Positions 2,723-43,922 of a stretch of DNA of 64,000 nucleotides are shown here, one piece after another. Numbering within the stretch: position 1 is the first letter of the stretch; the number at the start of each line of letters is the position of its first letter. Source of the stretch: Cyanophora paradoxa CCMP329 (lineage: Eukaryota > Plantae > Glaucophyta); NCBI GenBank assembly GCA_004431415.1, contig QPMI01000568.1, forward strand, positions 52,183-116,182. The letters are read 5' to 3'. The notes below the pieces were generated by a model, which was not told the origin of the DNA, made no database searches, and saw only the letters and a list, made by a program, of their open reading frames with translations. The position numbers were made by a program, and so were the translations under genes.

Positions 2723-2725
2723 AAT

Positions 2726-4108: not shown

Positions 4109-4134
4109 AATTTTATATATTCGTATAGTAGGAA

Positions 4135-4218: not shown

Positions 4219-4409
4219 AACCTTCGAAAGATTACACCCGGTTGTATCGGTAAACACCTTATCGGTTATTGCTTTTATGCGCTCTTCTTCCGATAAATCT
4301 GGATTAACGTAAAATCCCAAATGATTCGCGAAATACTCTTTGGTAATCGCCATGGTTACAGTGTGTAAACTTCTAAAAAAGGGGCGTCATTTTTTACCCG
4401 CGTTACATT

Positions 4410-4871: not shown

Positions 4872-4934
4872 TTGTATTATATGTTTAACTTCTAAAAAAA
4901 AGATTGTCATTTTTTGTCCCGTTGAACATTTCAT

Positions 4935-5639: not shown

Positions 5640-5690
5640 CGTTACTATATTTGATTGTTAAATTCTTGTCATTTTTTACGATAGACATTC

Positions 5691-5841
5691 TACTGTATGA
5701 TTCTATTGTATCTCGTGGAAATAAAGGATTCCTTTGTTTTTCAACAATGGATACTGTTCGATATCCCCAAGGTAGATCTATCATTAAAAAAGGATATAGT
5801 ATATCCTTTTTTCCGTATAGATACAATAGAATCTTACAGTA
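5691..5841. repeat. Nested inverted repeats near the end of element A
   Basis: 23-bp arms at 5691-5713 and 5819-5841 (1 mismatch) enclose a perfect 13-bp-arm palindrome AAAAAAGGATATA-G-TATATCCTTTTTT at 5786-5812. Confidence 0.85.
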
Positions 5842-6448
5842 AAACCACAGGGAGGGGGTCATGGGTAAAGAGAGAAAATGTGATTTATCAATAAAGTCGA
5901 TAGATATATATGAGAGGCATAGGTAGGGGGTCATGGTTTTTTGGGGAAAGTGAGCAAATTACGATTCCTATCGGGCATTGGTAAGGAATCGATCGTAAAT
6001 TGCTTTGATTATCGATGAGGTCTATTAATGCGATGCGGGGTTTTAACTGTGAGGTTCACTACAAACCGACCGACGAGGCATTCGGAATCGCAAGAGAATA
6101 AATCGATACATGCAAATAAATAAGAAACGAAACTACACTATAGCTAGCCCCTTCAATGTCTGCGAGGGGACTGCCCACAATGGCAATTAAGAAAAGCTGT
6201 ACAAAGTTCAAGCTAACCTCAGGTCCATAAGCGCTGGCGGAGCCGGGCGCAATTCCGAACGCTGCAAATCAAAGCTGTACATGTATAACTACTTCTTACA
6301 ACACCAATTGCAACGGCCGCAAGTTGAGCGCGCGCGATCGGTATTGAAAGTAAAATGTGACATGCACCTTCCAAGCTGACAGTTTCAAGCTTCATCGCTA
6401 TCGATATTGATGCTCAAAGAAATTATACAATCCAGAGCCTGCAGCTGG

Positions 6449-9934: not shown

Positions 9935-10041
9935 ACACATAAATAAAAACAAATTTTAATCCCTCGCTCTATCGCTCAATTCGCGCTTCGCGCTCATTTC
10001 GCTCTGTCGCTCAGGATTAAAATTTGTTTTTATTTATGTGT
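9935..10041. repeat. Terminal hairpin: perfect 28-bp arms around a 51-nt loop (mirror copy 38578-38684)
   Basis: ACACATAAATAAAAACAAATTTTAATCC (9935-9962) and its exact reverse complement (10014-10041). Confidence 0.95.
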
Positions 10042-10406
10042 AAATTAATCGAAAATATTTAAAAAATAAATCAAAAATTTTAATAAAATCAATTAAATTT
10101 AAATAAATTCGATTAAATTAATTGGTATAATATCAATTAAATTATGATTTTATAAAAATTATATAAATTTTTGATAAATTACGTATTTCTCGATTGATTT
10201 ATTGATATAAACGCGATTAATTTGTATTAAAATGAAAAATACGTATTTTTCGATTGATATAAACGCGATTAATATGTATTTTATGCAAATTCGATATAAT
10301 CTCGATTGAAGGAACATAAATTTATGATATAATCACGATTGATATAATCACGATTGAAGTAGTCCACCGCCCATTCTATCGGAAAACGCAAAAATTCACA
10401 CAGAGT

Positions 10407-10767
10407 TGCATTATGTCCAATTAAACAATCGATGAGATTGCGGCGTATTTTGTTGGATTAGATGGCTACTGCATTATGTCCAATTAAACAATCGATGAGA
10501 TATCGGTTGAAAATAATTCACTCGTTACTGCATTATGTCCAATTAAACAATCGTTGAGATTGCGGCGTATTTTGTTGGAAGGGATGGTTACTGCATTATG
10601 TCCAATTAAACAATCGATGAGATTGCGGTTCGATTTTTACTGTATCAAAAATGACCCCAGAGTTGCATTATGTCCAATTAAACAATCGATGAGATTGCGG
10701 TTCGATTTTTACTGTATCAAAAATGACCCCAGAGTTGCATTATGTCCAATTAAACAATCGATGAGAT
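10407..10767 (+). repeat. Six 32-bp direct repeats with 27-40-bp spacers in the TIR (mirror 37852-38212)
   Basis: TGCATTATGTCCAATTAAACAATCGATGAGAT at 10407, 10470, 10529 (1 mismatch), 10592, 10664 and 10736. Confidence 0.9.
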
Positions 10768-10840
10768 TGGATTCTGTTTTTTACTGTATCAAAATTGTGT
10801 TTCAAGTGTAACACGTCCAATTAATCAATCGATAATCAAT

Positions 10841-11121
10841 GTGTAACAGGTGAATCCCAACGTGTAACAGGTGAATCCCAAGGTGTAACGGATGAATCCC
10901 AAGGTGTAACGGGTGAATCCCAAGGTGTAACGGATGAATCCCAAGGTGTAACGGATGAATCCCAACGTGTAACAGTTGAATCCCAAGGTGTAACGGATGA
11001 ATCCCAACGTGTAACAGGTGAATCCCAAGGTGTAACGGGTGTAACAGGTAAATCCCAAAGTTTTGGGTTTTTGGCCTCCCTAGGAGCGAAGTTTGGGATT
11101 TACCTGTTACACCTGTTACAC
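10841..11121 (+). repeat. Nine 21-bp tandem repeats followed by an iteron palindrome (mirror 37498-37778)
   Basis: GTGTAAC(A/G)G(G/A/T)TGAATCCCAA(C/G) x9, then GTGTAACGGGTGTAACAGGTAAATCCCAAA...TTTGGGATTTACCTGTTACACCTGTTACAC. Confidence 0.9.
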
Positions 11122-11171
11122 ATGACGATATTCAATAATACATGTTATATTTCTTCAAAATCTCAGTGTGA

Positions 11172-11570
11172 TTAACTCGGAAATCGCGCTGCTATCTGCT
11201 TCTCCGCTTTCTCCAACCCTGAAAAGATCTCTGTTATTCTCTCATCTATCAATTTAGATATTACGGAGGTCTTACTTTGCGCTTCTGTTCCGCAAGTGAA
11301 TACATCAATCGCTAACATTCCTTGATCCGAATAACAATGAGCGGTTAAATGGCTCTCATCGAGAAGTAATACCATCGCAAAACCCGGTGGCGAAACACCA
11401 CCATCGAAAATCTCGCAATGCTTGTGAACAACTCGGATACCTTGTTCTTGAATAATAGATTGAAAAAATTGCATTAACCACTTCGTTGTGGTGTCTATGT
11501 TGTCCAATCCCACCATCAATGGATGATTGAACTTGTAATCTAACATAACATGGAAACCGCGATGATTCAT
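11172..11570 (-). CDS. speD: S-adenosylmethionine decarboxylase proenzyme, short prokaryotic (class 1B, SpeD/SpeH-like) pyruvoyl type
   Basis: GFHVMLD, F..G...PPGFAMVLLLDESHLTAHCY, AIDVFTCG. The E-S autocleavage site is intact; 132 aa. Confidence 0.85.
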   Translation of the reverse strand: MNHRGFHVMLDYKFNHPLMVGLDNIDTTTKWLMQFFQSIIQEQGIRVVHKHCEIFDGGVSPPGFAMVLLLDESHLTAHCYSDQGMLAIDVFTCGTEAQSKTSVISKLIDERITEIFSGLEKAEKQIAARFPS

Positions 11571-13800: not shown

Positions 13801-16800
13801 CTATGCTACCATCTTCCCTGTTGCTATATAAGTCATTTGATAGTGGAAAAGTCCAATGCTTTCATTGTATTCTCTATTTGCCGAAATTGTTGCATAAATA
13901 GTAAATGTTGTTGTTGTGGAACTTGTGACACCATATACCAATACATATGAACCACCATTATACCCATCTCTTAAATTGAGAACGACTGCTGGGGCTTCTG
14001 CAAACGCTTTTGGGAATGTGACAACTTGTGGAAATCCCCAATGACCCGGACCTGTGATTGTTAAAGATTTTGAAAAACTCCCTGTCTGTATATACTGGTC
14101 TTTATTGACCCGTTGTTCTGAGACAAGTTTCGCAATCTTACCATTGTCTTTTTCATCCATCGCATAGTATGCTCTTGCGTAAGCATTGCCACGACATAAT
14201 AGTGTTTTATCGTATATGTTCGCGGAATTGTGGAAGAACCACTGTTCGTAGAATAAAGGAGAGTCTGGTTGGTAAATTTGACCGGATCCCACATACATGG
14301 TATTATTTGCTGTGATCGTATTTGCTACAAATGGGTCTAAGGTTGGGAAATCTGTGATTTCCGATTTCGTGTGAGTATGGGCGAAATCTGTTATATTTGC
14401 CTTTGTGTGAGTATGTGCAAAATCGGTGATATCTGATTTAGTGTGAGAGTGAGGTCCGACAGTTGTGGAAGCTGTTGGTTTCCCGTAAATGTTATCCCAA
14501 TGCAAGAAGCCACTGTGTGATGATACAGCAGGATTTTTACTCCAACCAACAAGACCCACAAGGTAAATCCTTCCAATTCGCCCTTGAACACCAACTTTAC
14601 TCAGCCCTTCACAATTTACCCCGACATATTGCCTATACTCTACACTTGGGTCACTACCAGGAGAATAAGCATTTACTCTCGAAAGTGTATAAGAATTTGT
14701 TGATGGATAAACTCCCACAACATCAAAGTATCTACTATTGTATTGACACACATAGAAGATATAGCATGTCTTCATTCCCGCGGGGACAGTCCATAACATC
14801 TTGTAGCCACTACAATCTTCATCACCAGAAGCCCATGTGTTTGCTCCTGAGTAAGGAGATATGAATGTAAAAAATCTCCAATCACCTGTGCGGTCTGTGG
14901 AAATACCACTTGTAGCATCGAAATTTGTGGGTGCTGTATATGTTGGTTTATTAATTAAATCATCATAATTTCCGCTTGTCGCAACTGCTGCTAAGGTGGG
15001 TCTATCCGTAATATGGCTCCATAAATGTAGATGTGGTGAAGGTGTGAATGTTACAGGCTTATCTGTTATACTATTCCATGTGTGTGTGTGGTCAAAATCT
15101 GAAATCTCATCTTTTGTGTGAACGTGTGCAAAATCGGGTATCTCTAATCGGGAATGTGTGTGGGCAAAATCTGTTATTTGTGATTTTGTGTGAGTGTGTG
15201 TGGGTATCTCCAAATTGCTAAGTGTTAATCTGTCTTTGCCGATAATATTCAGAATTTCCCGAGTTAAGATTGGTTGAGTATTGGGGAATCCATACATTTG
15301 TTGGATGTAATACCTTACTTGTTGTTTTTCTGCTGTGGTTAATGCTCTGTTGAATACAATAATCTCAGCAATGCTTCCCGCAAATATTGTTCCAAATCCA
15401 AAATCGTTTATAGTGGAATCAGGTAAATAATTATTAATTCCTGTGAGAGTTCCCACATCGACACCATTTAGCCCCACTGTGTAGCTATCAGAAGTTATTG
15501 TTTGGTCTGAGTAATACCATTTATTTAGCAAAGAGGGAACTGTGACAGCAATTGGAGGTTGTGTTACACCATTTATAGCGAAAGTAGTTGTCCCTAATCT
15601 TGTTGAATTATTTGCTCCATAGTAGGCTAATCGCGTTGGTGATGTTGTTTTTAGCACACGCAAATGTGTATGAGAAGCACCTGTTTGTGTTAAATGATAT
15701 CTTCCAATATAGAAGAATGTCAAACCTTGTGACCAATCAATCGTTCTTGTCATCGTTGAGTTTGCTGAGTAGTTCCCTGAATCGCTTGTTAAAGTCATCT
15801 GATTATTTATAGCGATATTGGATGAGTAGTAGGGACTTCCTGTGGAACTGACAGTTATAGATGGAACGATTGAGGAGACCCTATTGTAAAGAATTGTTGA
15901 TGCTGCATTTTGACCATGAACCCCTGATGCTTTCCATGCAAAAATACAATTGGGAATATTAGAAGCTGGATCAAAATTGGAAGTGATTCGATAAAAATTT
16001 TCACTATAAGATTCTAAATAGCTTCCGGTTCCCATTTGAATTTTCCCTCCAACTGTTAGGTTGCTTGTCACAACCAAGTTGCTGGTGATGGTTCCACCTG
16101 TGAGAGGAAGATAATTAGATAATGCTACATTAAGTTCAGGTTCAGTCACATATACATCAAGTTCTGATTTTGTCACATAATCTTCAAGAACTGCTGCAAG
16201 TTCTGTATCGTCTACATAATTTTTGCTTTCAAGGTAATCATCTGTGACAACACCTGAAAGGGTCTCATTGTGTAAATTTTTTGCCGCCATTCTCTGATTG
16301 ACTTCTAAGGCGCCACCTGCTAATGTTTTGATCCACGCCATCTCACATTTCCCGAAATCATCTTTTGGTTGTCCCACAAGTGGTGCGTAATTGAATTTCG
16401 AGCGACTAAATATTATTTTCGGTCTTGATCCATCGGTTGCGCTTACATCTGTAACGTTTACTTGTAAGATGGCGTCTTTATCATCATAACTCACTGGATC
16501 TAATGGAAGTGGAGGTAAACCTGCTGTTAATGGGATATCTTCATTATAATAACTTGTCAAAAACAGACCTGGTTTAGTATCTATAACTCCCACCCCACCT
16601 GCTGAAACCATTTGAGATCTTGAAGGTTGTTTAATGTATAATTCGCCATCCATTGTGGTGCCTGCGTCTATTCCTTTTCGGTGCAAATAGTATTCACTTA
16701 ATTGTAATCTTTCAGGAATGGTGTCACTCTGATAGAAACTAACCCCATAAAATCCGTCACCATTTACTAAATCACCTGTTGATGCAAAACGTGGTTTTTC

Positions 16801-19800
16801 ATCTATTTCACTCCATGGGTGTTTGTGGTTAGAGTTTGTGATTTCGGAATAATCATGAGTGTGTGAATCTGGTGGAAAGGTTAACGGAGGATTTGTGATA
16901 TGCTCCCATAAATGAGTATGGGCGAAATCTGTGATCTGATCTTTGGTGTGAGTATGGGCAAAATCTGTGATCTGATCTTTGGTGTGAGTATGGGCAAAAT
17001 CTGTAATTTGATCTTTTGTGTGTGTGTGGGCGAAATCTGTGATCTGATCTTTGGTGTGAGTATGGGCGAAATCTGTGATCTGATCTTTGGTGTGAGTATG
17101 GGCAAAATCTGTGATCTGATCTTTGGTGTGAGTATGGGCAAAATCTGTAATTTGATCTTTTGTGTGTGTGTGGGCGAAATCTGTTATTTGATCTTTTGTG
17201 TGAGTATGGGCGAAATCTGTGATCTGATCTTTGGTGTGAGTATGGGCAAAATCTGTGATCTGATCTTTGGTGTGAGTATGGGCAAAATCTGTAATTTGAT
17301 CTTTTGTGTGTGTGTGGGCGAAATCTGTTATTTGATCTTTTGTGTGAGTATGGGCGAAATCTGTGATCTGATCTTTGGTGTGAGTATGGGCAAAATCTGT
17401 GATCTGATCTTTGGTGTGAGTATGGGCAAAATCTGTGATCTGATCTTTGGTGTGTGTGTGGTTTTGTATCCAACCTTGAACCACATTCGATGTTGGATGA
17501 TGAGGAAGATTAGCATTACTTGTTACAGTGAGATAATCGATCACTGTATCGGGTGATGTGATCTTTAAACCTCTGTAAATGGTCAGAGGTTGAGTATTGG
17601 GGAATCCATACATTTGTTGGATGTAATACCTTACTTGTTGTTTTTCTGCTGTGGTTAATGCTCTGTTGAATACAATAATCTCAGCAATGCTTCCCGCAAA
17701 TATTGTTCCAAATCCAAAATCGTTTATAGTGGAATCAGGTAAATAATTATTAATTCCTGTGAGAGTTCCCACATCGACACCATTTAGCCCCACTGTGTAG
17801 CTTGTAGAAGTTATTGTTTGGTCTGAGTAATACCATTTATTTACCAAAGAGGGAACTGTGACAGCAATTGGAGGTTGTGTTACACCATTTATAGCGAAAG
17901 TAGTTGTCCCTAATCTTGTTGAATTATTTGCTCCATAGTAGGCTAATCGCGTTGGTGATGTTGTTTTTAGCACACGCAAATGTGTATGAGAAGCACCTGT
18001 TTGTGTTAAATGATATCTTCCAATATAGAAGAATGTCAAACCTTGTGACCAATCAATCGTTCTTGTCATCGTTGAGTTTGCTGAGTAGTTCCCTGAATCG
18101 CTTGTTAAAGTCATCTGATTATTTATAGCAATATTGGATGAGTAGTAGGGACTTCCTGTGGAACTGACAGTTATAGATGGAACGATTGAGGAGACCCTAT
18201 TGTAAAGAATTGTTGATGCTGCATTTTGACCGTGAACCCCTGATGCCTTCCAAGCAAAAATACAATTGGGAATGTTAGAAGCGGGATCATTACTGGCTGT
18301 AATAGAATACCATTCTCTGTAAAGTTGGTTCATGGTATTAAAGTTGCCTGAGCCAATCGTTAGAATTCCATTCACTTTTAGGTTGCTGGTCTCTATGTTG
18401 CTACTGTAAATATTACTATTTACTGTAAGGTTTCCTGTGATTGTCCCACCAACAAGCGGGAGATATTTTGATAATTCCGCGGCAAGTTCAGGTTTTGTTA
18501 CATAATTTCCAAGCATCGCAAGAGTTACGAAATTAACGAGAATTACAGCCGTTAGGTAATCTTCCGTTACGATTCTTGAAATATCTTCATTGTGTATGTT
18601 TTTGGCGCTTGCTCTTTGATTGATTTCTAATAAACCTTCACCAACGCCACCGTTATATTTCGTTTTTATCCATGCTATCTCACATCTTTTGTAATCATCG
18701 CGATCTCCTATAAAAGTATTTGGTAAAAGACGCTGCCGACTAAATACTAATTTGGGTCTCGATTGGTCAAAGTCGCTAACATCTGTTACATTAATTTGTA
18801 TTGCTGCGTCTTTGTTATCGCAACTATTTGGATCTAATGGAAGTGACGGTAGCGGAGGTAATACATTTGTCATCTCGATATCCTCAGGATAGTAGCTTGT
18901 TAAATAAATTCCGGGTTTCGTCTCATACAAACCAAAATTACCACTAATTGGTAAAATGCCTTCTCTTCTGGGTGGTCTAATGTATAATTCAGCTTCCATT
19001 CCTGTGCCTGCTTCTATTCCCATGCGATTAAGGTAGTGGTCATTTAATTGTAATCTTTCTTCGATTTCTATGTTTCGGTAGAGACTTACGCCATGTTGAA
19101 AATCTGTTAATACATTTCCTGCGGATGCGAAAGTAGGTTGCTGGTCGATTTCGTCCCAATTATGCCTATGGTCTTCTGGCGGAAAGTCTGGTGGTATTCC
19201 ATCAATTTCGTCCCAATGGTGGCGATGCTCTGTCGGTGGAAATCTTTCCGGTTTGTTTAAAATGTCTTCCCATTCGTGATCGTGGGGATCTGGTGGGAAT
19301 GTTTCAGGTTTGTTAATAATATCCCTCCAATCTACTGTAAAATCGAAAAATCCCGGTTGTAATCCGTCTGGTAATAACTCTTCATCTGGTATATGTGGTT
19401 GTTCGTAATCTATGTTAGGTGGATTTAATCCATCTGGTAAAAGTTGTTCATCGAAAGGTTCGTAACGATCATATAACATATGGTTAGGATCAAATCCATC
19501 CGGCAATTCTTCCACGTCTTCACATTCTTTATGTTCGAGAGGGATTACATTAATATCTGGTGCTAAGAGTTCCTCAGCGGGCGGTTTGTAATCTTTAAAA
19601 ACTGGTTTATTATAAACTTTTTCCCAACTAACTAAATGTTGACCAAACGCAACCGTTTCATCAGCTGTGTATTCTCTTCCGGGTTGTTTTTTGGTGTAAG
19701 ATCTGGTGGATCCCATGGTAACGGAAATGGAACTGGAACAGGTCCGTAATGTTCAAATATTTCTCTTATCGTTTTCTCACTAACAAGTTTCTCGCCATTT

Positions 19801-20571: not shown

Positions 20572-22130
20572 ATGCCTCAGAAGATTGTTTTATCGTTGTC
20601 TGGTGGAGGTGCGCGTGGTATTATCATAACAAGGTTACTAACAGAAATTGAAAATAGAACTCGAAGACGTATAATAAATCTTGTCGATCTTGTAAGCGGA
20701 ACATCCACAGGTGGTATAATTGCGATTGGGTTAAATATCAGACATCCTGAGATGCCCAATGAACCAAAACTAACAGCTAACGATTTGCATAATATTTATC
20801 TTACACAGTTACCGTTAATTTTTGCGAATCCGCGAAATATCATTGAAAATGCCCTTTTCAATACAAAATACGATGCTACACCACTGGAAAGTGCGATTTA
20901 TTCAGTAACTGGTGAATCACTCATAAGAGATTCTCTAAAAGACATTGTGATTACATCTTTTGATACTCAATATATGAAACCAATATTTATAACAAACGAT
21001 AACAAATACAATTTTTTGCCGAATAAAATAGTAGCGCGTGCTACATCTGCTGCTCCAACATACTTTTCTCCTGTTAGCATTGTAGATTTCAATAATGGCG
21101 TAATTGCTTCTCTGATTGATGGCGCAATTTCAGGAAACAATAACCCAAGTGTATGCGGTTATAGTCATGCAAAAAAGATTTATAATGAAGATGACGAAAT
21201 TATAGTTATAAGTATATCTTGTGGTGAGGTTGATGCAAATTTAGAATCTGAATATTTCGGATATGCTTATGAGACTGTGAATAGCTGGGGTATTCTTTCA
21301 TGGATTGCTTCAACAGAAGGAAGCCCATTAATTAATATGCTAATGGCTGCAAGCGAACTATCCGCTCTTGATAAAATGGAAGAATTACTACCTCCAAATC
21401 TTGACCAAGGATATAATAGATATTTCCGTCTTTCTGTTCCGCTTCCAAATGATATAGTTCGATCACTTGATGATACATCTAAGATACCTGAAATGCTCGC
21501 ATTCACTGAAACGTATATTGCTGCAAATGACGCTATGATAAATAGACTCTGTGATTTACTTGTAACAAATTATGAGATTAATAACCCTGTCAGATCGTAT
21601 ATATCTTCCACTCTTAATAACATACCTCCCATTGACGCTAATTGGTATCTTCTGTCAGATAATGCGTTTTCTGCTTCGTCTGCGAAATTCGGAAAAGAGG
21701 CATTTAAAGCCCGCCCATCATTAACAGGATGGGAAGCGAACGCATCCGCCATAAACGGAGTATGGGAAACGCCAACTGAATATTTGCAAATTGCTTTTCC
21801 ATATACATATGAAATCGCTTCTATAATTGCTTATGGTTCAGGTATAACAACTGCGTTTATTAAAACTTTCAATGTTGCGACATCGCAAGATGGTTTAACA
21901 TGGTCCTTCATCAAATCTGATGGTGTAAATAGAATCTTTGTATGTGAAAATATAAATAATGCTAATAACTCTGGGATGTATCATATGCTACGGGTTTCCC
22001 GCTTATAATTAACGATGTATTTAATATACGTTATTCTTTGAGAATTCAATATATTCGTATTTATCCATTAGTATATATAAATGCTCCAACTATGAGAGTC
22101 GATGTGTCGGGTTCATTTATTAGAAATTAG
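20572..22130 (+). CDS. Patatin-like phospholipase with C-terminal F5/8 type C (discoidin) domain; frameshift near 21975
   Basis: GGGARG, GTSTG, SAAPTYF and DGA motifs; discoidin motifs (EYLQI, YIRIYP, MRVDV). The element C copy (50804-52345) is intact. Confidence 0.88.
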
Positions 22131-23425
22131 AGCTTTTCAGTTCCATTTATTGTAAGTTTTTTTAATTCTCTTGTTACTTTGTTTTTTTTCTTTAATCTTG
22201 CTTGTAAAAGCGGTTCTTCTGGGACATCATCCGCTTTTTCGATGCCTTCCTTACGAATCGCCGAATCAACCCGGGCTTCTTCTTTCGCTTGTTCAAGTGC
22301 ATCCACTGTGGGCGCTTCGTGATACTCAACACCTTTGATAGGTAACAGTTCGTGGAAAGCGAATCTCCCTTCGACCATTTCGCCATTTGGATTTCGCAAC
22401 CTGAACTTGAAACCCTCTCTCCCTTCGACAGTATAGACGATTCGCGACCAATTGACACCCTGTTTAGCGAATGGGTTCTTTTCTATTCTCACTCTCACAA
22501 ACATACCCTGTTTCACGCCATCTAAGTAAGCAATTGATTTCTTGAACCTCTCATCTTCTAAACCAATAATCTCTCTATAATGCTCTTCCGTTGTTTCTGC
22601 TGGTTTTCTCTTAGTTGCCGAGTGGATGGTATTGTTATAGTTATACTCTATGTCTCCCAATACATCGAAGAATCGCGCTGTGTTGTTTGCTATGCAATAG
22701 TTCGTGATCAATCGTTTGATCTGCTTGTTAAACGCTTCGATTCTACCTTGGCTTCGATGATCTGCGACATCGCTTATCTGATGGTCTATGAACTTCTTAG
22801 CAAGGTAATTCGTGAACATCGTATTTGTGAACTCGCTTCCGCTGTCACTCTGAATGCGAGCGATAGGTCGCGGAACTCTTCGTTGTAACTGCTCAAACGC
22901 CGCAAGCGCCGTAAGAGCGCTCTTATCTCTCATCGGAATGATGTAACCGGTGCGTAAAGTCGATTCCATCGCGGACATGAACGTATCGTAACCGTCGTTT
23001 TGGTTCTTGTATGCCGGGAAAAAGAGCAGATCGATTACGTAGGTATCGAGAGGTTGCCGAATCGGAATCATTGGGTCTCTCTTTCTTGAAAGGGTCGGTG
23101 CGTTTATCTGAACAACTTCCTGTTTATCATACCATTCTCTCATCTTCTTGTAGTCTTCCTCTGGTAGTTCCTTTCTCATTGCCCCGAAACCCTTGTAACC
23201 TGTGCGCGGATCGTAAAACTTCTTCGCGATCTTCGATTCTTTCGTTACAGTCTCAGTAGGCAATGCCTCCGGGATCAGTTCTTTAACCATCTCAGACTTC
23301 TTCAAGATTCGTGTGTTCTTCTCTTCGACCGGAATAGTGATCGGTAGCATGTTCCCTTGGTCTTCTTTCATGCTCTTCTTTACAATTTTAGGGACGGGTC
23401 GCAATCCTATCTGTGCTGAGGGCAT
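22127..23425 (-). CDS. Retroviral-type (rve) DDE integrase
   Basis: YVIDL, IQSDSGSEF, GRIEAFNKQIK, YNNTIHSATK. The 6-bp TSD fits this enzyme class. Confidence 0.92.
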   Translation of the reverse strand: MPSAQIGLRPVPKIVKKSMKEDQGNMLPITIPVEEKNTRILKKSEMVKELIPEALPTETVTKESKIAKKFYDPRTGYKGFGAMRKELPEEDYKKMREWYDKQEVVQINAPTLSRKRDPMIPIRQPLDTYVIDLLFFPAYKNQNDGYDTFMSAMESTLRTGYIIPMRDKSALTALAAFEQLQRRVPRPIARIQSDSGSEFTNTMFTNYLAKKFIDHQISDVADHRSQGRIEAFNKQIKRLITNYCIANNTARFFDVLGDIEYNYNNTIHSATKRKPAETTEEHYREIIGLEDERFKKSIAYLDGVKQGMFVRVRIEKNPFAKQGVNWSRIVYTVEGREGFKFRLRNPNGEMVEGRFAFHELLPIKGVEYHEAPTVDALEQAKEEARVDSAIRKEGIEKADDVPEEPLLQARLKKKNKVTRELKKLTINGTEKL

Positions 23426-23452: not shown

Positions 23453-23614
23453 ATGGACGAGCCGGTTTGGACAGAACACCCAAAACCAAACTACTTTGCG
23501 ATCGATCCAAACGACCCCGGTTTAAGGTGCATATGGTTGCTGCATCTGATCCGTGGTTTACTGCTACTTGGAGATCGAAAAAATAAAAAGAGAAGTATTG
23601 AGCAAGTATATTAA
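23453..23614 (+). CDS. Unannotated 53-aa micro-protein between integrase and pPolB
   Basis: MDEPVWTEHPKPNYFAIDPNDPGLRCIWLLHLIRGLLLLGDRKNKKRSIEQVY*. Conserved with identical length at 54237-54398. Confidence 0.75.
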   Translation: MDEPVWTEHPKPNYFAIDPNDPGLRCIWLLHLIRGLLLLGDRKNKKRSIEQVY

Positions 23615-26600
23615 AGACCAAATGGAATGCTGTGAATGCCGTCGGCTGATATCTTCCGTTTGCTATCGAGTTGGTTTAGAGCGACCCTTCTGCTCTCCAA
23701 GTCATATAAGTTGTGGTCTTGCCTTCGCTTGTTTGTTACTGATACTGTTTTTATGATGCCTTCGAACAGACATCTCTTAAAATCATCAAAATGAACCTCT
23801 TTCGAGGAAGTCCCCGACATCTTTACTCTTTCGTTGGTCTCAGTTCTGAAAGCATAGAGTTTCGATCTCAGACCCACATACTCCATGATCTTTGCATTTG
23901 GGAACTCATTTTTATATTTACCTGGAACCATGCGGTTTTTGATACTCACGAGAGGATGGGATTTATCGTAATTGCTCCTATCGAGATACTCACCTATCTC
24001 TTTCATATCTTCGTTCAGATTATTGGTTTTCAGGAAAAGACAGAACGAATCGGTATCGTGGAACAGTAGTTTAGCTGTTTCCCACTTCCTCCTTACCACA
24101 TCGTAGAAGAACCGATAATTATGCAGCTTCGCGAAATCCAAAACGAAAGCGCCAATTGCTACGGGTTTATCTAAGTTAACATGCTTCGAATACATCTCAA
24201 AGGCAACTGCGTTTTCGTTTAATACATTGGTCGCCTTGATAAGCGGACTTGCTGCGTATTTCTTACAGAGTTTCTCACTGTTAGCGATCTTGACAGTTGA
24301 GCGACCCCTGCAAGATTCCAAACATTTACCGTAAATTGCATTGTTCATGAGTTTAAAGAAGTCGCTTTCGAAATGGTTAGTAGATTCATGCCTGAGAAGA
24401 GTATTCAGACCAATGTAAGACTTCATGAATGGGGAAGTAGCGAATGAGAGAACTTTATGTATCTTTTTTAGAACGACACCCTTTTCAATGATGTAATTAA
24501 GAAGAGGTCGAGCAATCACGTATTTATTCTTGGGCGTAAATGTCGCTGTAAGTTTGGGGTCTTTGCTGATCTTTTCGCCCGTCAGATCTAATAGTTTACG
24601 TTGATAATCACCAAGCATTTCAGCGGTAATCACTTCTTTATTCACAATCAGTGGAAATCGTAATGATCTTCAAAAGTTGTGGGGTATTCAAGATCTACTT
24701 CAATAAATGCGCTTCGTCCCTCTACCTCTTTAAGTGCCTCTGTGATGTCTTCCCATCGATAATCTCCGATTGGTAGTGGTTGACTGAGAGCATAACCATA
24801 AAGATTATTTGCATCCAACAGAACTATATGATCGTTGGGGTTCTCTACCTTTGCGTATCGTGTGGGCATGGTAGCAAATCCACCGCGAATGGCTCTCTCA
24901 ACAAATTCGTATTTCTCTACATCATCGATTAGTTCAATCTTAACTTTCGTATGTTTTAGCATAGCATCCCAAGAGAGACCCGGTGCGCTAACATAATGTG
25001 CGGGATCCAATCCGTATTGAGAAAACGCCAATTTGCGAAATGCTTCAAACTTTCTCATTAAATCGCCTACATCCACAGATTGGAAATCCATAAAATGGGA
25101 AGCATCTATGAACTTCCACATGCCCCATTGAAGCGATAGGTATTGATCGAAATTCTTGCTCAGAATCTCAACACGTAGTTTATCATCTTGTTGGGCAATT
25201 TTGCGGAATATTCCGTGTCCGCATTCATCCATGTGATCGACCACGATAGCTACTTTGGTTTGCTTTGAGATTCGCCGGTGGAGGTTACAGTTTCGGCATG
25301 CCTTTCCGATGAAATCGCCGGATTGGTGGCAATGATCGCGAACCGGGAAGTTTTCGTGGGTGAATCTCTGAGAGCAAATGTAACAGTGTTTTGTTACCTT
25401 GTATTCCGCCTTCTGATCGTCTGTGAGTGGATGCATCGGAATGTTTCTAAACAGCGTCTCAACGATTTCGGGTCTAATATCTTGTAGAGTAGCAAAGAGA
25501 GAACCAAGCGGATCGGCTCCCTCGAAATGGTATGCTCTCACTTCATCTCCCATTACCACTCTCAATGAAACCGCTTTGATCTCACGTTTACTCCTCTGAG
25601 CATCAATAGCGACCGAATGATCTTCGACTTTAACGTAACAGATCACAGGGAGCCACACAGTTTTACGCAAGTGTTGCAGACCGAATTCAATTACGCTTCC
25701 CGCTTTTGGGCATTTGCCTTTGCTCTCCCTCCAATCAATGCAGCGATTCGCTTCAACATGCATGTCTAATTTCTCCTGAGTTCTGAAACGCGACAAGCAG
25801 GTTTCACAGTAGTAAATGCGACCATCACATGCTTTATCAAACGTAGTTTTCAGAAGACGACTAAAAGACATGATAGTAATGTAGTGTCCCCGATCATCTT
25901 CGGTGTTTTCGATAAGTAAAAGATTAATCTTGGTCTTTCTTCTTGGGTTACTTGATTGATGGAGAGGATAGAAACACTCTTTGGCGTTATCGGCTCCGTA
26001 AATGTTAATAGAGAGTTCGGGGTTTAGTTCTTCGAAACGATCGATTACCTCAGCATCACATGCAACGGGAAACTGAATACCATCGAAATTGAGTTCATTT
26101 AACCAACGGCGGTATTGGCTTGGTTCGTTACTCTTGTGTTTGTTAATGTCCTTTCGATGCAGGTAAGCCAAAATCGCATACTTGAAGCAATCTTGACCGT
26201 CGATATTCTTAACGTTCACCGTTGCCTTCTTGGATGCAATCCATTCGGGAGTTGCGAAATAGCATCCTCCCACAGGTGCATAAGACATGATAATGCCTCT
26301 AAGTATTTCGATCTTCTCCAAACGGTAACTATCCACTTGCGTCATTTCCTCTTGCATTTTCTGTAACGCTTTGCGAACTTCTGTGTCTATGTTGCGGGAT
26401 CGGGTAATTACGAAATAATCGCTGTAAATGAATTTGGTGATATAGATGCGCGGATTACCTACTTTGGTGAACTTGCAAACGAAAGTCAGACGGACTTTAA
26501 CGGCTCTCAGTTGCTCTAAGCGGGTTCTAATGCGTTGCGGTAGACTTGGTGCGATTCTTTCGAGGAATTCGATAGCATCCACGACAACTTCATTTCGGGC

Positions 26601-26891
26601 GCGATAGGTCAACCACGAATACGCTTGATTCATCGCTTGTCCATCTTCGATATCCGGTTCAATTGCTCCTAATCTCTGTCCTTCACCCATAAATTCCTCC
26701 ATTCGTTGCATGCGATCGTAGAGGTCATTTGCAATCTCAGTGAGTTGACCTAATCGCGGTCGTCTATCTAAGATGGCGGCTTCTCTATCGTATTCCGCTT
26801 CGGTGATCTCACCTGTAACTAAGAGAGTTCCTAACAATCCAAGTATTTCATTTTTCTTTTCTTTGATCAGTCTGTTCGTTTGGCGGGGCAT
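23611..26891 (-). CDS. Protein-primed family B DNA polymerase (vOTU-like and endonuclease-VII-like domains; degenerate exonuclease); one frameshift near 24655
   Basis: NIDGQDCFKYA...GHYITI, VRDHCHQSG...CRNCN, YGLDPAHY.SAPGLSWDAMLK, IRGG, DANNLYG, KLMNNAIYGK, HDTDS, GLRSKLY. Confidence 0.92.
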
Positions 26892-27311: not shown

Positions 27312-29649
27312 TTAGTTGGGAGCCTCTACGTCGTCGTCGTCGTCCTGAATCATAATCTTTTTTTTCAGTCCGAAGTAACCACGCTTCACCTGACCTCTTT
27401 CTCGAACAGTTTCAGACTTCACATTAAAGACTTCGCGGACTCGCTTTCCAATACTCGTGGCATCGGTTTTATCATCAACATAACGATAGCCAGCAATGAT
27501 AGATTCACTCGAAATGAAATCATTTCGGCTTCCGGTCTTCTCATAAGTGCTGCGGAGCCATTCCCCGATTTTATCGTTATCATTAAAGTATTCAAGTCCC
27601 TGATCGATGATAGACTGTGGCGGATTCATCAGCAGCTGTGCAAGATCCTGTTTCTTCCACATGTCCAAGAAGATCGACATTTGAGCCATCTTGTATTCGT
27701 CGTCATTCATGATGGACATAAGCGAAGTATCCGCTTTCTTCTCACCAGGTTGAGGGTTGGGCTTGAAGACACAAGAGAAACGATAGTAAGAGAGTCGCCG
27801 GTAAATCGCAGCATCGGGTTTACTCATCCCAGGTTCTCATTCGTCGATAAGAAGATTTGACCCATAGGAATGTAGGTAACAGGATCTTTGAACAGGGCGC
27901 GAACCTTCATCTCGTTACCACCTGTAATCTCTTTGATCTTGCTAATTTGAAGCTTGTCGCCATCTTCCGCTTCATTTGAAAAGATAATGCGACGACCCAG
28001 AATATCGGCAAGTTCAGGTGTAGCGTCTGATGCATTCTTTTTCGGTTTCGTCCAATATGACATATTGATTGTTCCGAAATACTGTCCGAATGTTTGCTTG
28101 ACCATCTCCTGAACGAGAGATTTACCATTGGCTCCAATTCCAGTCCAGAAATTGAACTTTTGAATATCTGTGCGACCACTCAGAGAGAAAGCGATCGAAC
28201 CCATCACGAAATTGCGCTCAATTTCCTCTTCGATGATGTCAGAGTAGATGGAAAGGATCTTGGCGACTTTCACAGAATCCACCTCGGGGCAATAATCATA
28301 ACCAACAGTCTTACTGATCATGTCTTCTGGGAGTCCCCTTCGGAAAGTCATAGAATTCAGATCAAACACGCCATTTGTGAATCCAATCACATTGGTAACA
28401 GTATCAAGTCTCTCGAAGAATGTCTTATCGTTCATCAGAACTGTGAGATCAGACAGAAGAGAAGTTCGGTAATTAGTCTGTTTGAGTTTCTTTGCGATAC
28501 CAAGAAGAACCTGTGATCTCTCCTCCAAAGACGCACGATTCTCTTCATCACGAAGCGCTCTCTGAGCGAATTGCACAGCACGTTGAAGATAAGCCGGGCA
28601 AACCCTGCAACTCAAACACAGATAGATTCGTTTCCCGGTCTCATCCATCTCCCAGATTCCGTAAGCCTCGTTGAACTTGAACCACGTCTTGTTTGAATAC
28701 TTGTAGCTGTCTCGCAGAACAAGAAAAGCAACCTGGGCAACATCATAATGTCCGCCATCAGATCCAATCGACCGATCAATTAGCTTTTCAATCTGAACAT
28801 CGGTATCAGCTTGAACGCGAACCGTCATAACTCGCTTCTTGCAATTGGTGCTATAACTCGAAACAATATACTTGTCTTTCTCGTTCCTTGAAGTATATAC
28901 CAATTGTTGGAGTCATGGCTTCCCTTGCAGCAGGGACAAATCAGACCTTTGTTCTCAGCAGTGAAACTGTAACCCTTCTCGGTCTCATTAATGATTGTGG
29001 GTAAGATGAAACCAAATTCTTCAAGTTTCCGGAGAATGTGTTTCTGCAAATCCTCTTCAATGCTCCTATCAATAGAAGAGTGTCCGCCTTTCGGAAAAAG
29101 GTAGTTGTCAATCATCCACTTTTGGAGTTCAGCACTCGGTTCGATCAACTCACAGCCTTCCGCCCATGGTTCTCTGATCCAAGTTTTACCGGGGCTTGGG
29201 GAAACGTTGATCAACCCAGCAGTTCCAGTGGACGCAATTGTCTTACAGTCGATCTTAGGATAACCTTTGAAAGCACCCGCTTTATCCCAGATCTTCACAG
29301 CATCGAAGTCAGAAGGACGAGAGAAGTAAACATGATATCCTTTTTTGGTTTTAGCAAGAGGATTGACACCACCGAAATCATCGGGGAATTGCTCCTCGAA
29401 TTTGGTGAAATCCTCCTCTTGGTCGAAGTCGATAACCACGATATTGCGAGCGAGAATGCCCCAAGCAACATACTTACCGGATTTCAGGGCTTCATCGAAT
29501 TTATCCCAAGTCCACGATCCGTCTTTATGGGCGAAAAGGGGTTTTTTGGTATCGGGATCAACGGGTATTACGATATTCTCAGACAGGACATCGTCTTCAC
29601 GAAGCCAATCAACAAGGCGTTTCAGGGATTTCTTGGCGGCAGCGTTCAT
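27312..29649 (-). CDS. Bifunctional primase-polymerase (PrimPol) fused to D5-like SF3 helicase with C-terminal winged helix; two frameshifts (near 28890 and 27830)
   Basis: WGILARNIVVIDFD...KTKKGYHVYF; CPCC...H; IGFTNGVFDL; WTGIGANGKS; FSNEAE; IKEITGG; C-terminal RGYFGLK. Confidence 0.88.
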
Positions 29650-31350: not shown

Positions 31351-32133
31351 TTACAATCCCCTCTTATATCGCATCAACTTATTCGTGTGAACAGCGCTTT
31401 TAATCTCTTTCGGCGCTTCCTCCTTCTCAGGCGGTTTTAATTCATCTTCTTTCTTTTTTGGTTTGCGATGGAACCGAGGAAACTTAAAGTCTTTAACGAG
31501 TTCCGCTTTATCAACATAGTATTCCACCGAATAATTCGCAGAACTCCAAATGAGAAACTGATAGGAGTGAACGTATTCCTCAAACATCTTATAGAAAGCG
31601 TCTTTATCCCGCATGATATTGTATTCTTCTTCAATGGCTTCCAGTTCTTTGCGATTGGCGGCACTTAGGAACATTGCATAATCTGAATTGACGCGAATGG
31701 TTGAAGAAACCTTACGCAGTTTCTGAGTTATGCAGAAAATTGTAATCGCCGAGTGGCGGCCGCGCGAATACAGAGATCCAATAATTTTATCACGGGTAAG
31801 GTCTACAATCTCATTGTCTATAAGATCATCGAGAACAACACATAATTGATTAACGGGTTCTCCTTTCTCAATTTTCTCTTGTCTTTCATCGAGAAGTTTA
31901 GCGATGTAAGGCGCATCCCATTTACCGAGCTGTAATGTTGCGACATCATCCCAAAAATGATTGAATGATGTCCCACTTATAACAAGAACAACATCTAACT
32001 TTTTCGCATCGTGAAGTTGTTTTAGCCAATACTTCACCGCTTCTGACTTGCCCGTCGCGCTTTTTCCGATTGCTAATACGCGAAAAGGGGGTTTAATCAT
32101 CTCAGCAGCATTAAATTCGGGAACGTCAGACAT
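31351..32133 (-). CDS. A32-like genome packaging ATPase
   Basis: Walker A GKSATGKS, Walker B VVLDD, RGRH and ITQ motifs. Start placed at MSDV, by comparison with element C. Confidence 0.92.
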   Translation of the reverse strand: MSDVPEFNAAEMIKPPFRVLAIGKSATGKSEAVKYWLKQLHDAKKLDVVLVISGTSFNHFWDDVATLQLGKWDAPYIAKLLDERQEKIEKGEPVNQLCVVLDDLIDNEIVDLTRDKIIGSLYSRGRHSAITIFCITQKLRKVSSTIRVNSDYAMFLSAANRKELEAIEEEYNIMRDKDAFYKMFEEYVHSYQFLIWSSANYSVEYYVDKAELVKDFKFPRFHRKPKKKEDELKPPEKEEAPKEIKSAVHTNKLMRYKRGL

Positions 32134-33249: not shown

Positions 33250-34650
33250 TCATAGATTGATTCGCCTGACGCCATCGCGGTCAATTATGAGGAACGAATG
33301 CATGAGAGCGCGAACGTTAACAGTAATTGTGCGATCAGCAGGAAGATATAGAGTGAGGAATGATGAAGACGAGTTCGTAAGGTCAACATATCCAGATTGG
33401 GCAATGTTGCGAATCGCCTTCTCACCATCAACACAGAATGGGAATCCAGTAAGGACGTAACGGTTTGCTTCCTTGTCCATATTCGAGCATTTGAAGGCAT
33501 CGGCGATGAGTTCCGCACCTTTGAGTAGCGGGATCGGCTCCGTCGAATAAAGACGCTGTCCGTTGATCTCACAAGTCATCGTGATATCCTTCGCATTCGC
33601 AAGCGTTTTAAGGACGCTGTGAGAACCATTCGAGGTATCGACACCATCAGCATCACGAACAGAGACAAGAAGAGCATAAACCAGACCAGAGATTTGGCTA
33701 AGATTGATTCGGTTGGGTTGAGTGTTACCTTTCGCAGCAACACCAATAGCATCGACGAAACCGATATCGAGAGCAGGAATAGCCATCCCCGTGGTCTTAA
33801 CCTTCTCAATAACAGTTGCAAACAGTTCATCTGAAACGTTGATAGCATGCATGTAGAGACGAGGAGACTTAATGGAGATGTAATGGGTCATTGGTGGAAC
33901 AGTTCCAGCAACTTCGAACCCAGTAATACCGCCAGTGGTGATGTTTTGACCAACATTAGCAAGTGTAACGCTCGTAGCATTTCCAAGTCCATCATCTGAT
34001 GATTTATCCGCAGCAGTGGATCCAACAACCGGAAGAGAGCGACCACCATAAGAAGTTTCAAGGTAACCCTTGTTAGTTTCCTTAAACCACACAGTGATAA
34101 CGGCTTCGCCCGAGAGAGCGCCAAGTGGTAGGTAGTGGTTCAACCACGGCACCGGGATTTCAACAAAGAAAGCACCACCTTTACGGTTGGTTCCGTGAGC
34201 GGGAATACCATGAAGCATTCCCATTGAACGCTTCTTTTTCGCCAGTTGATCCTCGCTGTAATAAACCAGTGGGAAAATCGCAAGAAAATCGCTTGGGACG
34301 TGGTAGGTGTAAGAACCATACGAGAATTCAAGACGCTCTACAAGCGCACCAACGGGACGGGTGTAACCATTTCGCACAAGGTCGTCATCACCAGTAAAAG
34401 CGGTTAGTTCGGGAAGATCAAAAGCGAGTTCGATTTTACCAACAAAGTTGTAGCGGGGAAGTTTGAAAGAAACGCGTTGACCAACGTTGTTGTCATAGGT
34501 TGTCGAGGGACTAACGGTTACCAGAACGGGTTTCGTCTTCGATTCGAGACCAAGCATAAGCGAGTTATCGAGGAAGAACGCTTTGGCTTCCTCGGGCGTT
34601 GTTAGCGCCTCTTTCAGAGAAAGACGTTGAAGGGTCGAGGTAACATCCAT
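33250..34650 (-). CDS. Major capsid protein (double jelly-roll, NCLDV-like N-terminal motifs)
   Basis: 466 aa, beta-rich, next to the ATPase and minor capsid genes. GQRVSFKLPR...IELAFDLPEL...GALVERLEFSYG...VEIPVPW...LPLGAL pattern. Confidence 0.8.
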   Translation of the reverse strand: MDVTSTLQRLSLKEALTTPEEAKAFFLDNSLMLGLESKTKPVLVTVSPSTTYDNNVGQRVSFKLPRYNFVGKIELAFDLPELTAFTGDDDLVRNGYTRPVGALVERLEFSYGSYTYHVPSDFLAIFPLVYYSEDQLAKKKRSMGMLHGIPAHGTNRKGGAFFVEIPVPWLNHYLPLGALSGEAVITVWFKETNKGYLETSYGGRSLPVVGSTAADKSSDDGLGNATSVTLANVGQNITTGGITGFEVAGTVPPMTHYISIKSPRLYMHAINVSDELFATVIEKVKTTGMAIPALDIGFVDAIGVAAKGNTQPNRINLSQISGLVYALLVSVRDADGVDTSNGSHSVLKTLANAKDITMTCEINGQRLYSTEPIPLLKGAELIADAFKCSNMDKEANRYVLTGFPFCVDGEKAIRNIAQSGYVDLTNSSSSFLTLYLPADRTITVNVRALMHSFLIIDRDGVRRINL

Positions 34651-37340: not shown

Positions 37341-38684
37341 AAAGTAAGACCTCCGTAATATCTAAATTGATAGATGAGAGAATAACAGAGATCTTTTCAG
37401 GGTTGGAGAAAGCGGAGAAGCAGATAGCAGCGCGATTTCCGAGTTAATCACACTGAGATTTTGAAGAAATATAACATGTATTATTGAATATCGTCATGTG
37501 TAACAGGTGTAACAGGTAAATCCCAAACTTCGCTCCTAGGGAGGCCAAAAACCCAAAACTTTGGGATTTACCTGTTACACCCGTTACACCTTGGGATTCA
37601 CCTGTTACACGTTGGGATTCATCCGTTACACCTTGGGATTCAACTGTTACACGTTGGGATTCATCCGTTACACCTTGGGATTCACCCGTTACACCTTGGG
37701 ATTCATCCGTTACACCTTGGGATTCACCCGTTACACCTTGGGATTCACCTGTTACACGTTGGGATTCACCTGTTACACATTGATTATCGATTGATTAATT
37801 GGACGTGTTACACTTGAAACACAATTTTGATACAGTAAAAAACAGAATCCAATCTCATCGATTGTTTAATTGGACATAATGCAACTCTGGGGTCATTTTT
37901 GATACAGTAAAAATCGAACCGCAATCTCATCGATTGTTTAATTGGACATAATGCAACTCTGGGGTCATTTTTGATACAGTAAAAATCGAACCGCAATCTC
38001 ATCGATTGTTTAATTGGACATAATGCAGTAACCATCCCTTCCAACAAAATACGCCGCAATCTCAACGATTGTTTAATTGGACATAATGCAGTAACGAGTG
38101 AATTATTTTCAACCGATATCTCATCGATTGTTTAATTGGACATAATGCAGTAGCCATCTAATCCAACAAAATACGCCGCAATCTCATCGATTGTTTAATT
38201 GGACATAATGCAACTCTGTGTGAATTTTTGCGTTTTCCGATAGAATGGGCGGTGGACTACTTCAATCGTGATTATATCAATCGTGATTATATCATAAATT
38301 TATGTTCCTTCAATCGAGATTATATCGAATTTGCATAAAATACATATTAATCGCGTTTATATCAATCGAAAAATACGTATTTTTCATTTTAATACAAATT
38401 AATCGCGTTTATATCAATAAATCAATCGAGAAATACGTAATTTATCAAAAATTTATATAATTTTTATAAAATCATAATTTAATTGATATTATACCAATTA
38501 ATTTAATCGAATTTATTTAAATTTAATTGATTTTATTAAAATTTTTGATTTATTTTTTAAATATTTTCGATTAATTTACACATAAATAAAAACAAATTTT
38601 AATCCTGAGCGACAGAGCGAAATGAGCGCGAAGCGCGAATTGAGCGATAGAGCGAGGGATTAAAATTTGTTTTTATTTATGTGT
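37341..38684 (-). repeat. Right TIR of element B (1,344 bp), including the last 35 codons of the SAM decarboxylase gene
   Basis: Reverse complement of 9935-11278. Confidence 0.95.
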
Positions 38685-38705
38685 GACATTGAAAGCTCAG
38701 CGCAC

Positions 38706-43520: not shown

Positions 43521-43922
43521 CTAACTCGGAAATCGCAATACTCTATGTTTCTCCGATTTCTCCAACCCTGAAAACACACCTGTTATTCTCTCATCTATCT
43601 CATGAGATACTCTCGTGGTTTTTCTCTCTGCTTCTAATCCACAACTGAATATATCAATCGCCAACATTCCTTCATTTGAGTAACAATGAGCAGTGCAATG
43701 GCTCTCATCCAGCAGAAGAACCATTGCAAAACCAGGGGGAGAAATACCACCATCGAAAATCTCGCAATGCTTGTGAACTACTCGAATACCTTGCTCTTGA
43801 ATAATAGTTTGTAAGAACTGCATTAACCACCTGGTTGTTGTCTCCAAGTCCTCCATTCCTACTGCTAATTGGGTTCTGAATTTGTAATCCAGCATCACAT
43901 GGAAGCCTCGATGAGTATTCAT
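43521..43922 (-). CDS. speD: S-adenosylmethionine decarboxylase proenzyme (element C)
   Basis: PPGFAMVLLLDESHCTAHCY...AIDIFSCG; orthologue of 11172-11570. Confidence 0.85.
   Translation of the reverse strand: MNTHRGFHVMLDYKFRTQLAVGMEDLETTTRWLMQFLQTIIQEQGIRVVHKHCEIFDGGISPPGFAMVLLLDESHCTAHCYSNEGMLAIDIFSCGLEAERKTTRVSHEIDERITGVFSGLEKSEKHRVLRFPS

What the first reader, a model, noticed from the sequence alone, without database searches (positions are those of the whole stretch)
11172..11570. Bacterial-type SAM decarboxylase as the first gene of an integrating eukaryotic virus, with no spermidine synthase partner
Seen: an intact short pyruvoyl-type AdoMetDC (DESH cleavage motif, DVFTCG) is conserved in B and C next to the left TIR. 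The complete element B has no recognisable aminopropyltransferase. Known: AdoMetDC consumes SAM to make decarboxylated SAM, which is the aminopropyl donor for polyamines and an inhibitor of methyltransferases. Some homologues are instead arginine or ornithine decarboxylases. Phage T3 destroys SAM as an anti-defence strategy. Inference: either a polyamine boost for DNA packaging, or a SAM sink that weakens host methylation silencing or the capping and methylation of a co-infecting giant virus. I do not know this gene as a typical Polinton/PLV component.
Basis: partly seen in the sequence, partly recalled or inferred. Interest (0 to 1): 0.8.

Follow-up and report, generated by a model that had tools for sequence, protein, structure and literature searches.

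The report
Arginine decarboxylase in algal polinton-like virus
A virus-like element integrated in what is likely an alga's genome carries an intact small enzyme gene that looks like a SAM decarboxylase but groups with relatives that decarboxylate arginine, so it likely makes agmatine, a polyamine precursor, rather than draining SAM; the domain was already tabulated in such viruses, but without this reading.

Summary
The gene is real. 11172-11570(-) encodes an intact 132-aa pyruvoyl SpeD-fold protein at the left end of a 28.75-kb element with 1344-nt TIRs and a 6-bp target duplication. A 74%-identical copy lies in element C (dN/dS 0.24).

It is probably not a SAM decarboxylase. Trees place it (100/100) with Marine Group II archaeal homologues, apart from validated or speE-linked AdoMetDCs. 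Members of that archaeal group were shown to decarboxylate arginine and not to complement speD (SpeDA; PMC10407285). In that archaeal order, 98 of 101 genomes carry the family and 0 of 101 carry spermidine synthase; 80 of 80 loci sit beside DHS/SpeY, an agmatine user. The missing synthase is therefore expected, and the SAM-sink idea loses its basis.

The presence of the domain in PLVs is already recorded: PMC12220804 Table S6 lists PF02675 in 138 of 5817 PLVs, 42% of glaucophyte ones, with no comment in the text. New here are the arginine reading and at least two separate acquisitions by small viruses, each near giant-virus-type homologues. Activity, expression and purpose are untested.

The parts
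11172..11570 (-). SpeD-fold pyruvoyl decarboxylase gene, 132 aa; likely arginine decarboxylase (SpeDA). Ser73 at 11352-11354, His78 at 11337-11339, Cys93 at 11292-11294
43521..43922 (-). Second intact copy, 133 aa, in related element C; 74% aa identity, dN/dS 0.24
9935..11278 (.). Left TIR of element B; its inner 107 nt are the gene's last ~35 codons and stop
37341..38684 (.). Right TIR of element B; 37341-37447(+) is a headless copy of the gene's 3' end, without the catalytic residues
9929..9934 (+). 6-bp target site duplication GACATT (left copy)
38685..38690 (+). 6-bp target site duplication GACATT (right copy)
22127..23425 (-). rve-type integrase (weak Pfam match, E 2.7e-4)
23611..26891 (-). 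Family B DNA polymerase in two ORFs (24648-26891, 23611-24618)
   Evidence: PF03175 E 2.8e-4; weak PHROG polymerase match
27312..29649 (-). Primase and D5-type helicase in split ORFs
31351..32133 (-). A32-type packaging ATPase
   Evidence: PF04665 E 4.3e-9
33250..34650 (-). Candidate major capsid protein, 466 aa (not proven); only homologue found is a Cyanophora paradoxa protein, 57% identical
   Evidence: model poor (101), weak top hit to an adintovirus capsid (108)
20572..22008 (+). Patatin-F5/8 fusion, a gene type reported for glaucophyte and rhizarian PLVs

Best explanation
An integrated Polinton-like element carries an intact SpeD-fold gene whose product likely self-cleaves at Ser73 and likely decarboxylates L-arginine to agmatine (a SpeDA enzyme), which would feed the host's polyamine pool during virus replication. 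Shown: ORF, fold, catalytic triad, clade, purifying selection, and the lack of a synthase on the element. Inferred from relatives: self-cleavage and arginine as substrate (about 0.75). Inferred by analogy only: host enzymes would turn agmatine into putrescine, spermidine or homospermidine for translation and DNA packaging. A 130-aa enzyme that makes its own cofactor is the cheapest way for a 29-kb genome to push that first step. The gene was likely picked up from giant viruses or protists of the same habitat.
For: Trees: both copies fall in one clade with Marine Group II (MGII) homologues, apart from validated phage AdoMetDCs and speE-linked genes (SH-aLRT 99 in the quick tree of 102 rows; 100/100 with a stem of about 1.2 changes per site in the careful tree of 68 rows). 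PMC10407285 (parts 1-4 of 7 and the supplement read): Poseidoniales and MGII/III homologues, clustered with speB and speY, did not restore spermidine in E. coli speD and were active on arginine only. Gimesia, Solirubrobacter, Nannochloropsis and Tribonema proteins share that clade. Context here: DHS/SpeY-like gene in 80 of 80 GTDB loci, agmatinase-like in 21 of 80, speE in 0 of 80; 76, 18 and 0 of 80 metagenome loci. PF02675 in 98 of 101 and PF01564 in 0 of 101 genomes of that order. SpeY uses agmatine (PMC13625781, abstract and passages). Among 150 representatives, 6 match DHS, 1 matches agmatinase and 0 match speE. The H-x-W-P of most true AdoMetDCs is H-C-Y-S here, and none of 119 scored close homologues has the Pro. 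Selection: dN/dS 0.24; 15 of 25 listed contig variants synonymous, 19 of 25 at third positions, no indels listed.
Against: No assay was run. I could not fetch any biochemically tested SpeDA sequence, so the link to arginine runs through taxon and gene order, not through a tested tip in my tree. Identity to MGII proteins is only about 40-46% over the full length, and this family has changed substrate several times. The window's sub-branch holds only untested, mostly unnamed proteins, and branching inside the clade is poorly resolved. The Pro marker is not absolute: validated phiYS40 AdoMetDC lacks H-x-W-P, and I could not see the paper's Figure 8 to confirm which Pro is meant. Some clade members are fused to SAM-using NNMT (4) or SET (2) domains among 20 long proteins scanned. 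The element has no agmatinase, and the host's agmatine pathway could not be checked (no genome held). The GTDB patterns came from an MGII-rich alignment, and only the best 80 of 314 loci were kept.
Confidence: 0.7

Rival explanations
1. It is a true AdoMetDC that supplies dcSAM to a host spermidine synthase, or acts as a SAM sink against host methylation silencing or a giant virus's methylation.
For: PF02675 and AdoMetDC fold. Algal giant viruses do encode working class 1b AdoMetDCs (PMC9992855). A eukaryotic host normally has spermidine synthase, so a partner on the element is not needed (established knowledge). NNMT and SET fusions occur in the clade.
Against: Outside the AdoMetDC clade. Below the TIGR03330 cut-off. 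Its archaeal relatives live in genomes without detected speE and failed speD complementation. Element C keeps the gene yet shows CpG decay (CpG 295 against 741 in aligned B; CG to TG/CA 295 against 61; GpC 564 against 626), which is not what a methylation shield predicts, although this is indirect.
Confidence: 0.1
2. The viral branch has shifted again, to ornithine, lysine or mixed substrate use, giving putrescine directly without an agmatinase.
For: Phage homologues include ornithine and dual arginine/ornithine enzymes. The element has no agmatinase, and an ODC needs none.
Against: All known SpeDC ornithine enzymes form one separate clade with Gln/Thr/Phe/Tyr marks. By my mapping from Fig. 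S5 text this protein lacks them (L-L-D-E-S, H-C-Y).
Confidence: 0.08
3. It is a passenger held at the TIR edge, with little benefit to the virus, or kept for the host's benefit in silent copies.
For: Part of the gene is built into the TIR. Core replication ORFs of B and C are split. dN/dS 0.24 is weaker than patatin's 0.07. Only 4 of 19 host groups' PLVs have it.
Against: Frame and catalytic residues are kept across 26% amino-acid divergence and in the listed variants of many copies. The same clade recurs in unrelated small viruses.
Confidence: 0.12

Closest known systems
SpeDA pyruvoyl arginine decarboxylases of the Poseidoniales / Gimesia / Solirubrobacter / Nannochloropsis / Tribonema clade (Li et al. 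2023, PMC10407285)
   Same: Fold, Ser-His-Cys triad, size, DESH..HCY signature shared with Poseidoniales homologues, no speE partner.
   Different: Lies on an integrating small DNA virus-like element, alone, without speY or speB; about 45% identity; untested.
Virus-encoded polyamine enzymes (PMC9992855): pelagiphage HTVC201P SpeD-derived arginine decarboxylase; chlorovirus PBCV-1 PLP arginine decarboxylase; class 1b AdoMetDCs of Heterosigma akashiwo virus and Yellowstone Lake phycodnavirus 2
   Same: A virus carries the first step of polyamine synthesis; the pelagiphage also carries a lone SpeD-derived arginine decarboxylase.
   Different: That paper does not mention polintons (0 occurrences). 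The pelagiphage enzyme is described as a separate emergence; the eukaryotic-virus SpeDs tested there were true AdoMetDCs.
PF02675-bearing PLVs of glaucophytes and cryptophytes (PMC12220804, Table S6)
   Same: Domain in PLVs; the glaucophyte group also shows rve, A32, primase/D5, lipase, patatin-F5/8 fusions and capsids missed by HMMs. The element is probably of that set.
   Different: Only counted as AdoMet_dc in a supplement; no mention in the main text, no phylogeny and no substrate call. I could not check whether those 138 genes are of this clade.
Class 1b AdoMetDC (T. maritima SpeD, TIGR03330)
   Same: Fold (Foldseek E 2.8e-8, TM 0.64) and processing residues.
   Different: About 23% identity, below the equivalog cut-off, separate clade, H-C-Y-S-D/N in place of H-T-W-P-E.

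Membership tests
Class 1b SpeD-fold pyruvoyl decarboxylases | PF02675 above cut-off and AdoMetDC fold | tested here: met
   48.4 and 43.1 bits against 25; pLDDT 93.5, top hits 1vr7, 2iii, 1tlu
Class 1b SpeD-fold pyruvoyl decarboxylases | Ser, His and Cys equivalent to T. maritima S63, H68, C83 | tested here: met
   S73, H78, C93
Class 1b SpeD-fold pyruvoyl decarboxylases | Actual self-cleavage to a pyruvoyl enzyme | not testable with these tools
   needs expression
Bona fide AdoMetDC | TIGR03330 equivalog cut-off | tested here: not met
   51.1 and 42.1 bits against 75.65
Bona fide AdoMetDC | Groups with validated or speE-linked enzymes | tested here: not met
   separated by a 100/100 branch; SH-aLRT 99
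Bona fide AdoMetDC | Conserved Pro 'gamma' of PMC10407285 | tested here: inconclusive
   H-x-W-P Pro absent here, but Figure 8 not visible and validated phiYS40 also lacks it
Bona fide AdoMetDC | SAM decarboxylation or speD complementation | not testable with these tools
   needs assay
SpeDA arginine decarboxylase (Poseidoniales clade) | Clade membership with Poseidoniales SpeD homologues | tested here: met
   the tested accessions themselves were not available, so orthologues of the same taxon and gene order stood in
SpeDA arginine decarboxylase (Poseidoniales clade) | Relatives lack speE and sit with speY/speB | tested here: met
   80 of 80 DHS-like, 21 of 80 agmatinase-like, 0 of 80 speE; 0 of 101 genomes with PF01564
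SpeDA arginine decarboxylase (Poseidoniales clade) | Arginine to agmatine activity | not testable with these tools
   needs assay
SpeDC ornithine decarboxylase | Diagnostic Gln, Thr, Phe, Tyr | tested here: not met
   absent by my mapping from Fig. S5 text; the mapping is inferred
Polinton / Polinton-like virus | Long TIRs, 6-bp target duplication, rve integrase | tested here: met
Polinton / Polinton-like virus | A32 ATPase, family B polymerase, primase-helicase | tested here: met
   polymerase and integrase matches are weak, and polymerase and helicase ORFs are split
Polinton / Polinton-like virus | Double jelly-roll major capsid protein | tested here: inconclusive
   no Pfam or PHROG match; model pLDDT 36.5; top viral hit an adintovirus capsid at E 1.2e-3; no match to capsid candidates of L206-L215
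Polinton / Polinton-like virus | Virion production or reactivation | not testable with these tools
   needs culture work

The most novel reading that the evidence does not exclude
Polinton-like viruses have repeatedly taken an arginine decarboxylase from the giant viruses they share cells with and use it as a metabolic lever in that conflict: draining arginine or raising agmatine to tilt polyamine supply towards the small virus and away from the giant virus. This would be a small-molecule route for PLV interference.
Probability: 0.12. Interest if true: 0.75.

Novelty: new member of a known kind. Interest (0 to 1): 0.42.

Why it matters
Small integrating DNA viruses are usually seen as stripped-down genomes without metabolic genes. 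A polyamine-pathway enzyme kept under selection, acquired at least twice and present in up to 42% of one host group's PLVs would extend virus-encoded polyamine metabolism to this class. It also suggests that many 'SAM decarboxylase' labels on PLVs and giant viruses are wrong about the substrate. It is cheap to test. It is not a new enzyme type, and the domain's presence in PLVs is already on record.

Tried and rejected
No whole genome is held, so the host's agmatine pathway and the copy number were not tested. No RNA holder was listed. Four guessed-RNA runs laid nothing on the gene; this is no evidence on expression. Summed contig depth over the gene is far above the flank, but it is not a copy number and was not used as one. 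The first metagenome scan with the two window copies found 0 relatives among 103 pattern matches. The first viral scan gave 2 distant phage loci. The phage collection gave 76 weak, partial matches. The capsid candidate was not settled. The T. maritima substrate-complex paper was not available, so I make no claim about SAM-contact residues. A search for Cyanophora with putrescine and arginine decarboxylase found 0 papers. Earlier findings: none returned. A single origin for the small-virus copies was rejected (AU p 2e-7; the group was put together after seeing the tree). The careful tree of 102 rows did not finish, so the quick tree is quoted. For the second tree I dropped class 1a, the longest branches (including phiYS40 and P2559S) and near-duplicates (68 rows).

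Full report
OBSERVATION. The ORF 11172-11570(-) encodes 132 aa and matches PF02675 at E 1.3e-12. An AlphaFold model (pLDDT 93.5) finds T. maritima and Aquifex class 1b AdoMetDC as top folds (E 2.8e-8 and 4e-8). The residues needed for self-cleavage in T. maritima (S63, H68, C83; PMC10407285) align with S73, H78 and C93. A second copy at 43521-43922(-) is 74% identical and has DESH but DIFSCG. Nei-Gojobori dN/dS between the copies is 0.24. In one DNA run of the same organism, 50 contigs of varied identity lie on the gene with no indel listed. Of 25 listed variants inside the ORF, 15 are synonymous when taken singly and 19 are at third positions (that table showed the best 40 of 63 rows).

THE ELEMENT. 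B spans 9935-38684. It has 1344-nt TIRs with 3 mismatches, a GACATT duplication on both sides, and about 40% GC in a host of about 60% GC. It encodes an rve integrase, a family B polymerase, a primase and D5 helicase, an A32 ATPase and a patatin-F5/8 fusion (integrase and polymerase matches are weak). The last 107 nt of the gene lie inside the left TIR, so the right TIR holds a headless copy. The 466-aa capsid candidate could not be proven. Its only homologue is a Cyanophora paradoxa protein, so the host is likely this glaucophyte or a relative; this is an inference. Profiles built here from spermidine synthases, DHS and agmatinases found nothing in the window's six frames.

WHICH ENZYME. The protein scores below the AdoMetDC equivalog cut-off. 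The first homologue search gave 141 hits; those with a taxon name are Marine Group II-type archaea. Of the best 80 of 314 GTDB loci, 79 carry archaeal titles; the patterns were biased towards this group. All 80 have a DHS/SpeY-like gene nearby, 21 an arginase/agmatinase-like gene and none speE. In 101 genomes of that order, 98 have PF02675 (96 with one match) and none has PF01564, while the control rang in 10 of 14 named genomes. This is the speB-speDA-speY layout for which Li et al. showed arginine-only activity and no speD complementation in Poseidoniales and MGII/III proteins; two stramenopile algae belong to the same clade (PMC10407285; parts 1-4 of 7 and the supplement read, figures not seen). 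SpeY takes agmatine as substrate (PMC13625781; abstract and passages). In both trees the window proteins join the archaeal homologues and not the validated phage AdoMetDCs or speE-linked genes. Among 150 representatives, 6 match DHS, 1 agmatinase and none spermidine synthase. Of 20 long ones scanned, 3 carry PQ-loop, 4 NNMT and 2 SET domains; the methyltransferase fusions are the main loose end. The H-x-W-P motif of most AdoMetDCs is H-C-Y-S here, but validated phiYS40 lacks it too, so I give it little weight. No tested SpeDA sequence was in my trees.

HOW IT LIKELY WORKS. Shown: gene, fold, triad, clade and selection. Inferred: the proenzyme cleaves at Ser73 and decarboxylates arginine to agmatine without needing PLP. 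Inferred by analogy with pelagiphage and chlorovirus enzymes (PMC9992855; parts 1-3 of 7 and passages): host enzymes carry agmatine on to polyamines that serve translation and DNA packaging. The host route is untested. The SAM-sink idea rested on the missing synthase, which is normal for this clade. Element C also shows CpG decay while keeping the gene, a weak point against a methylation shield.

DISTRIBUTION. Of 11 IMG/VR loci from the second alignment scan, 5 (L206, L207, L210, L212, L215) are on 4-20 kb contigs with the gene upstream of an A32 ATPase and a 410-460 aa capsid-sized ORF, three of them with a primase or helicase. I read these as free PLV- or virophage-type genomes; their capsids were not confirmed. 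Giant-virus-type contigs carry it too (L084, L085, L208, L209). L126, with D5 helicase, RNase III and GH46, lies in the window's sister branch (93/87). The free small-virus copies sit among giant-virus copies elsewhere in the clade, and a joint origin with the window copies is rejected (AU p 2e-7). So at least two acquisitions are likely; the direction of transfer is not shown.

PRIOR ART. Searches for polinton with adenosylmethionine decarboxylase gave 0 papers. PLV with decarboxylase gave 7 papers, 5 listed, of which I checked one and it was irrelevant. Virophage with polyamine gave 15, seen as listings. None of the 15 listed held 'polinton'. The main texts of three PLV surveys have no occurrence of 'decarbox', 'adenosylmethionine', 'AdoMet' or 'polyamine' (passage searches). 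However, Table S6 of PMC12220804 counts PF02675 in Glaucocystophyceae 66 of 156, Cryptomonas pyrenoidifera 17 of 57, C. borealis 10 of 177 and Rhodomonas lacustris 45 of 706, and in none of the other 15 groups (138 of 5817, my sum), 0 of 17 reference PLVs and 0 of 40 virophages. I did not search the supplement of PMC10120064, and that of the bioRxiv preprint is closed; either may also list the domain.

VERDICT. The gene is real and selected, probably an arginine decarboxylase, and a new member of a known enzyme kind in a virus class where the domain was counted but not interpreted. Interest 0.42.

Noticed in passing
window 42000-64000 against 9935-38684: Element C is CpG-depleted (o/e 0.58) while its relative B is not (1.12); aligned CpG 295 against 741, with GpC similar. 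Suggests different methylation histories for two related lineages in one host.
   Followed up: partly
window 23611-29649 and 54395-60700: Polymerase and primase-helicase ORFs are split in both B and C, at different places; assembly error or decay was not resolved.
   Followed up: partly
window 33250-34650: Capsid-sized ORF with a single homologue in 5.8 billion proteins; Table S6 likewise finds an MCP in only 2 of 156 glaucophyte PLVs, so this may be an unrecognised capsid group.
   Followed up: partly
window 11172-11570 against 43521-43922: Synonymous divergence of this gene between B and C (pS 0.44) is much lower than that of four other shared genes (0.72-0.79), hinting at more recent exchange of the terminal region.
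   Followed up: no
P0215, P0249, P0273; P0221, P0259, P0278, P0282; P0208, P0232: Clade members fused to PQ-loop transporter repeats, to NNMT-type methyltransferase (two also with DHS), or to SET domains; possibly routes to methylated polyamines.
   Followed up: no
L084, L085, L208, L209: Giant-virus-type contigs carry this SpeDA-like clade; PMC9992855 reported only true AdoMetDCs from eukaryotic viruses in the parts read.
   Followed up: partly
window 10400-11050 and 37570-38230: The TIRs hold 63-72 nt and 21 nt tandem repeat arrays, partly shared with element C.
   Followed up: no
window 1-5900: Part of a third, different element with a helicase-like ORF, rve integrase and RING protein; three elements within 64 kb.
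   Followed up: no
window 13801-19716: 1971-aa fibre-like protein with 12-aa HTHTK repeats and a near-exact internal duplication.
   Followed up: no
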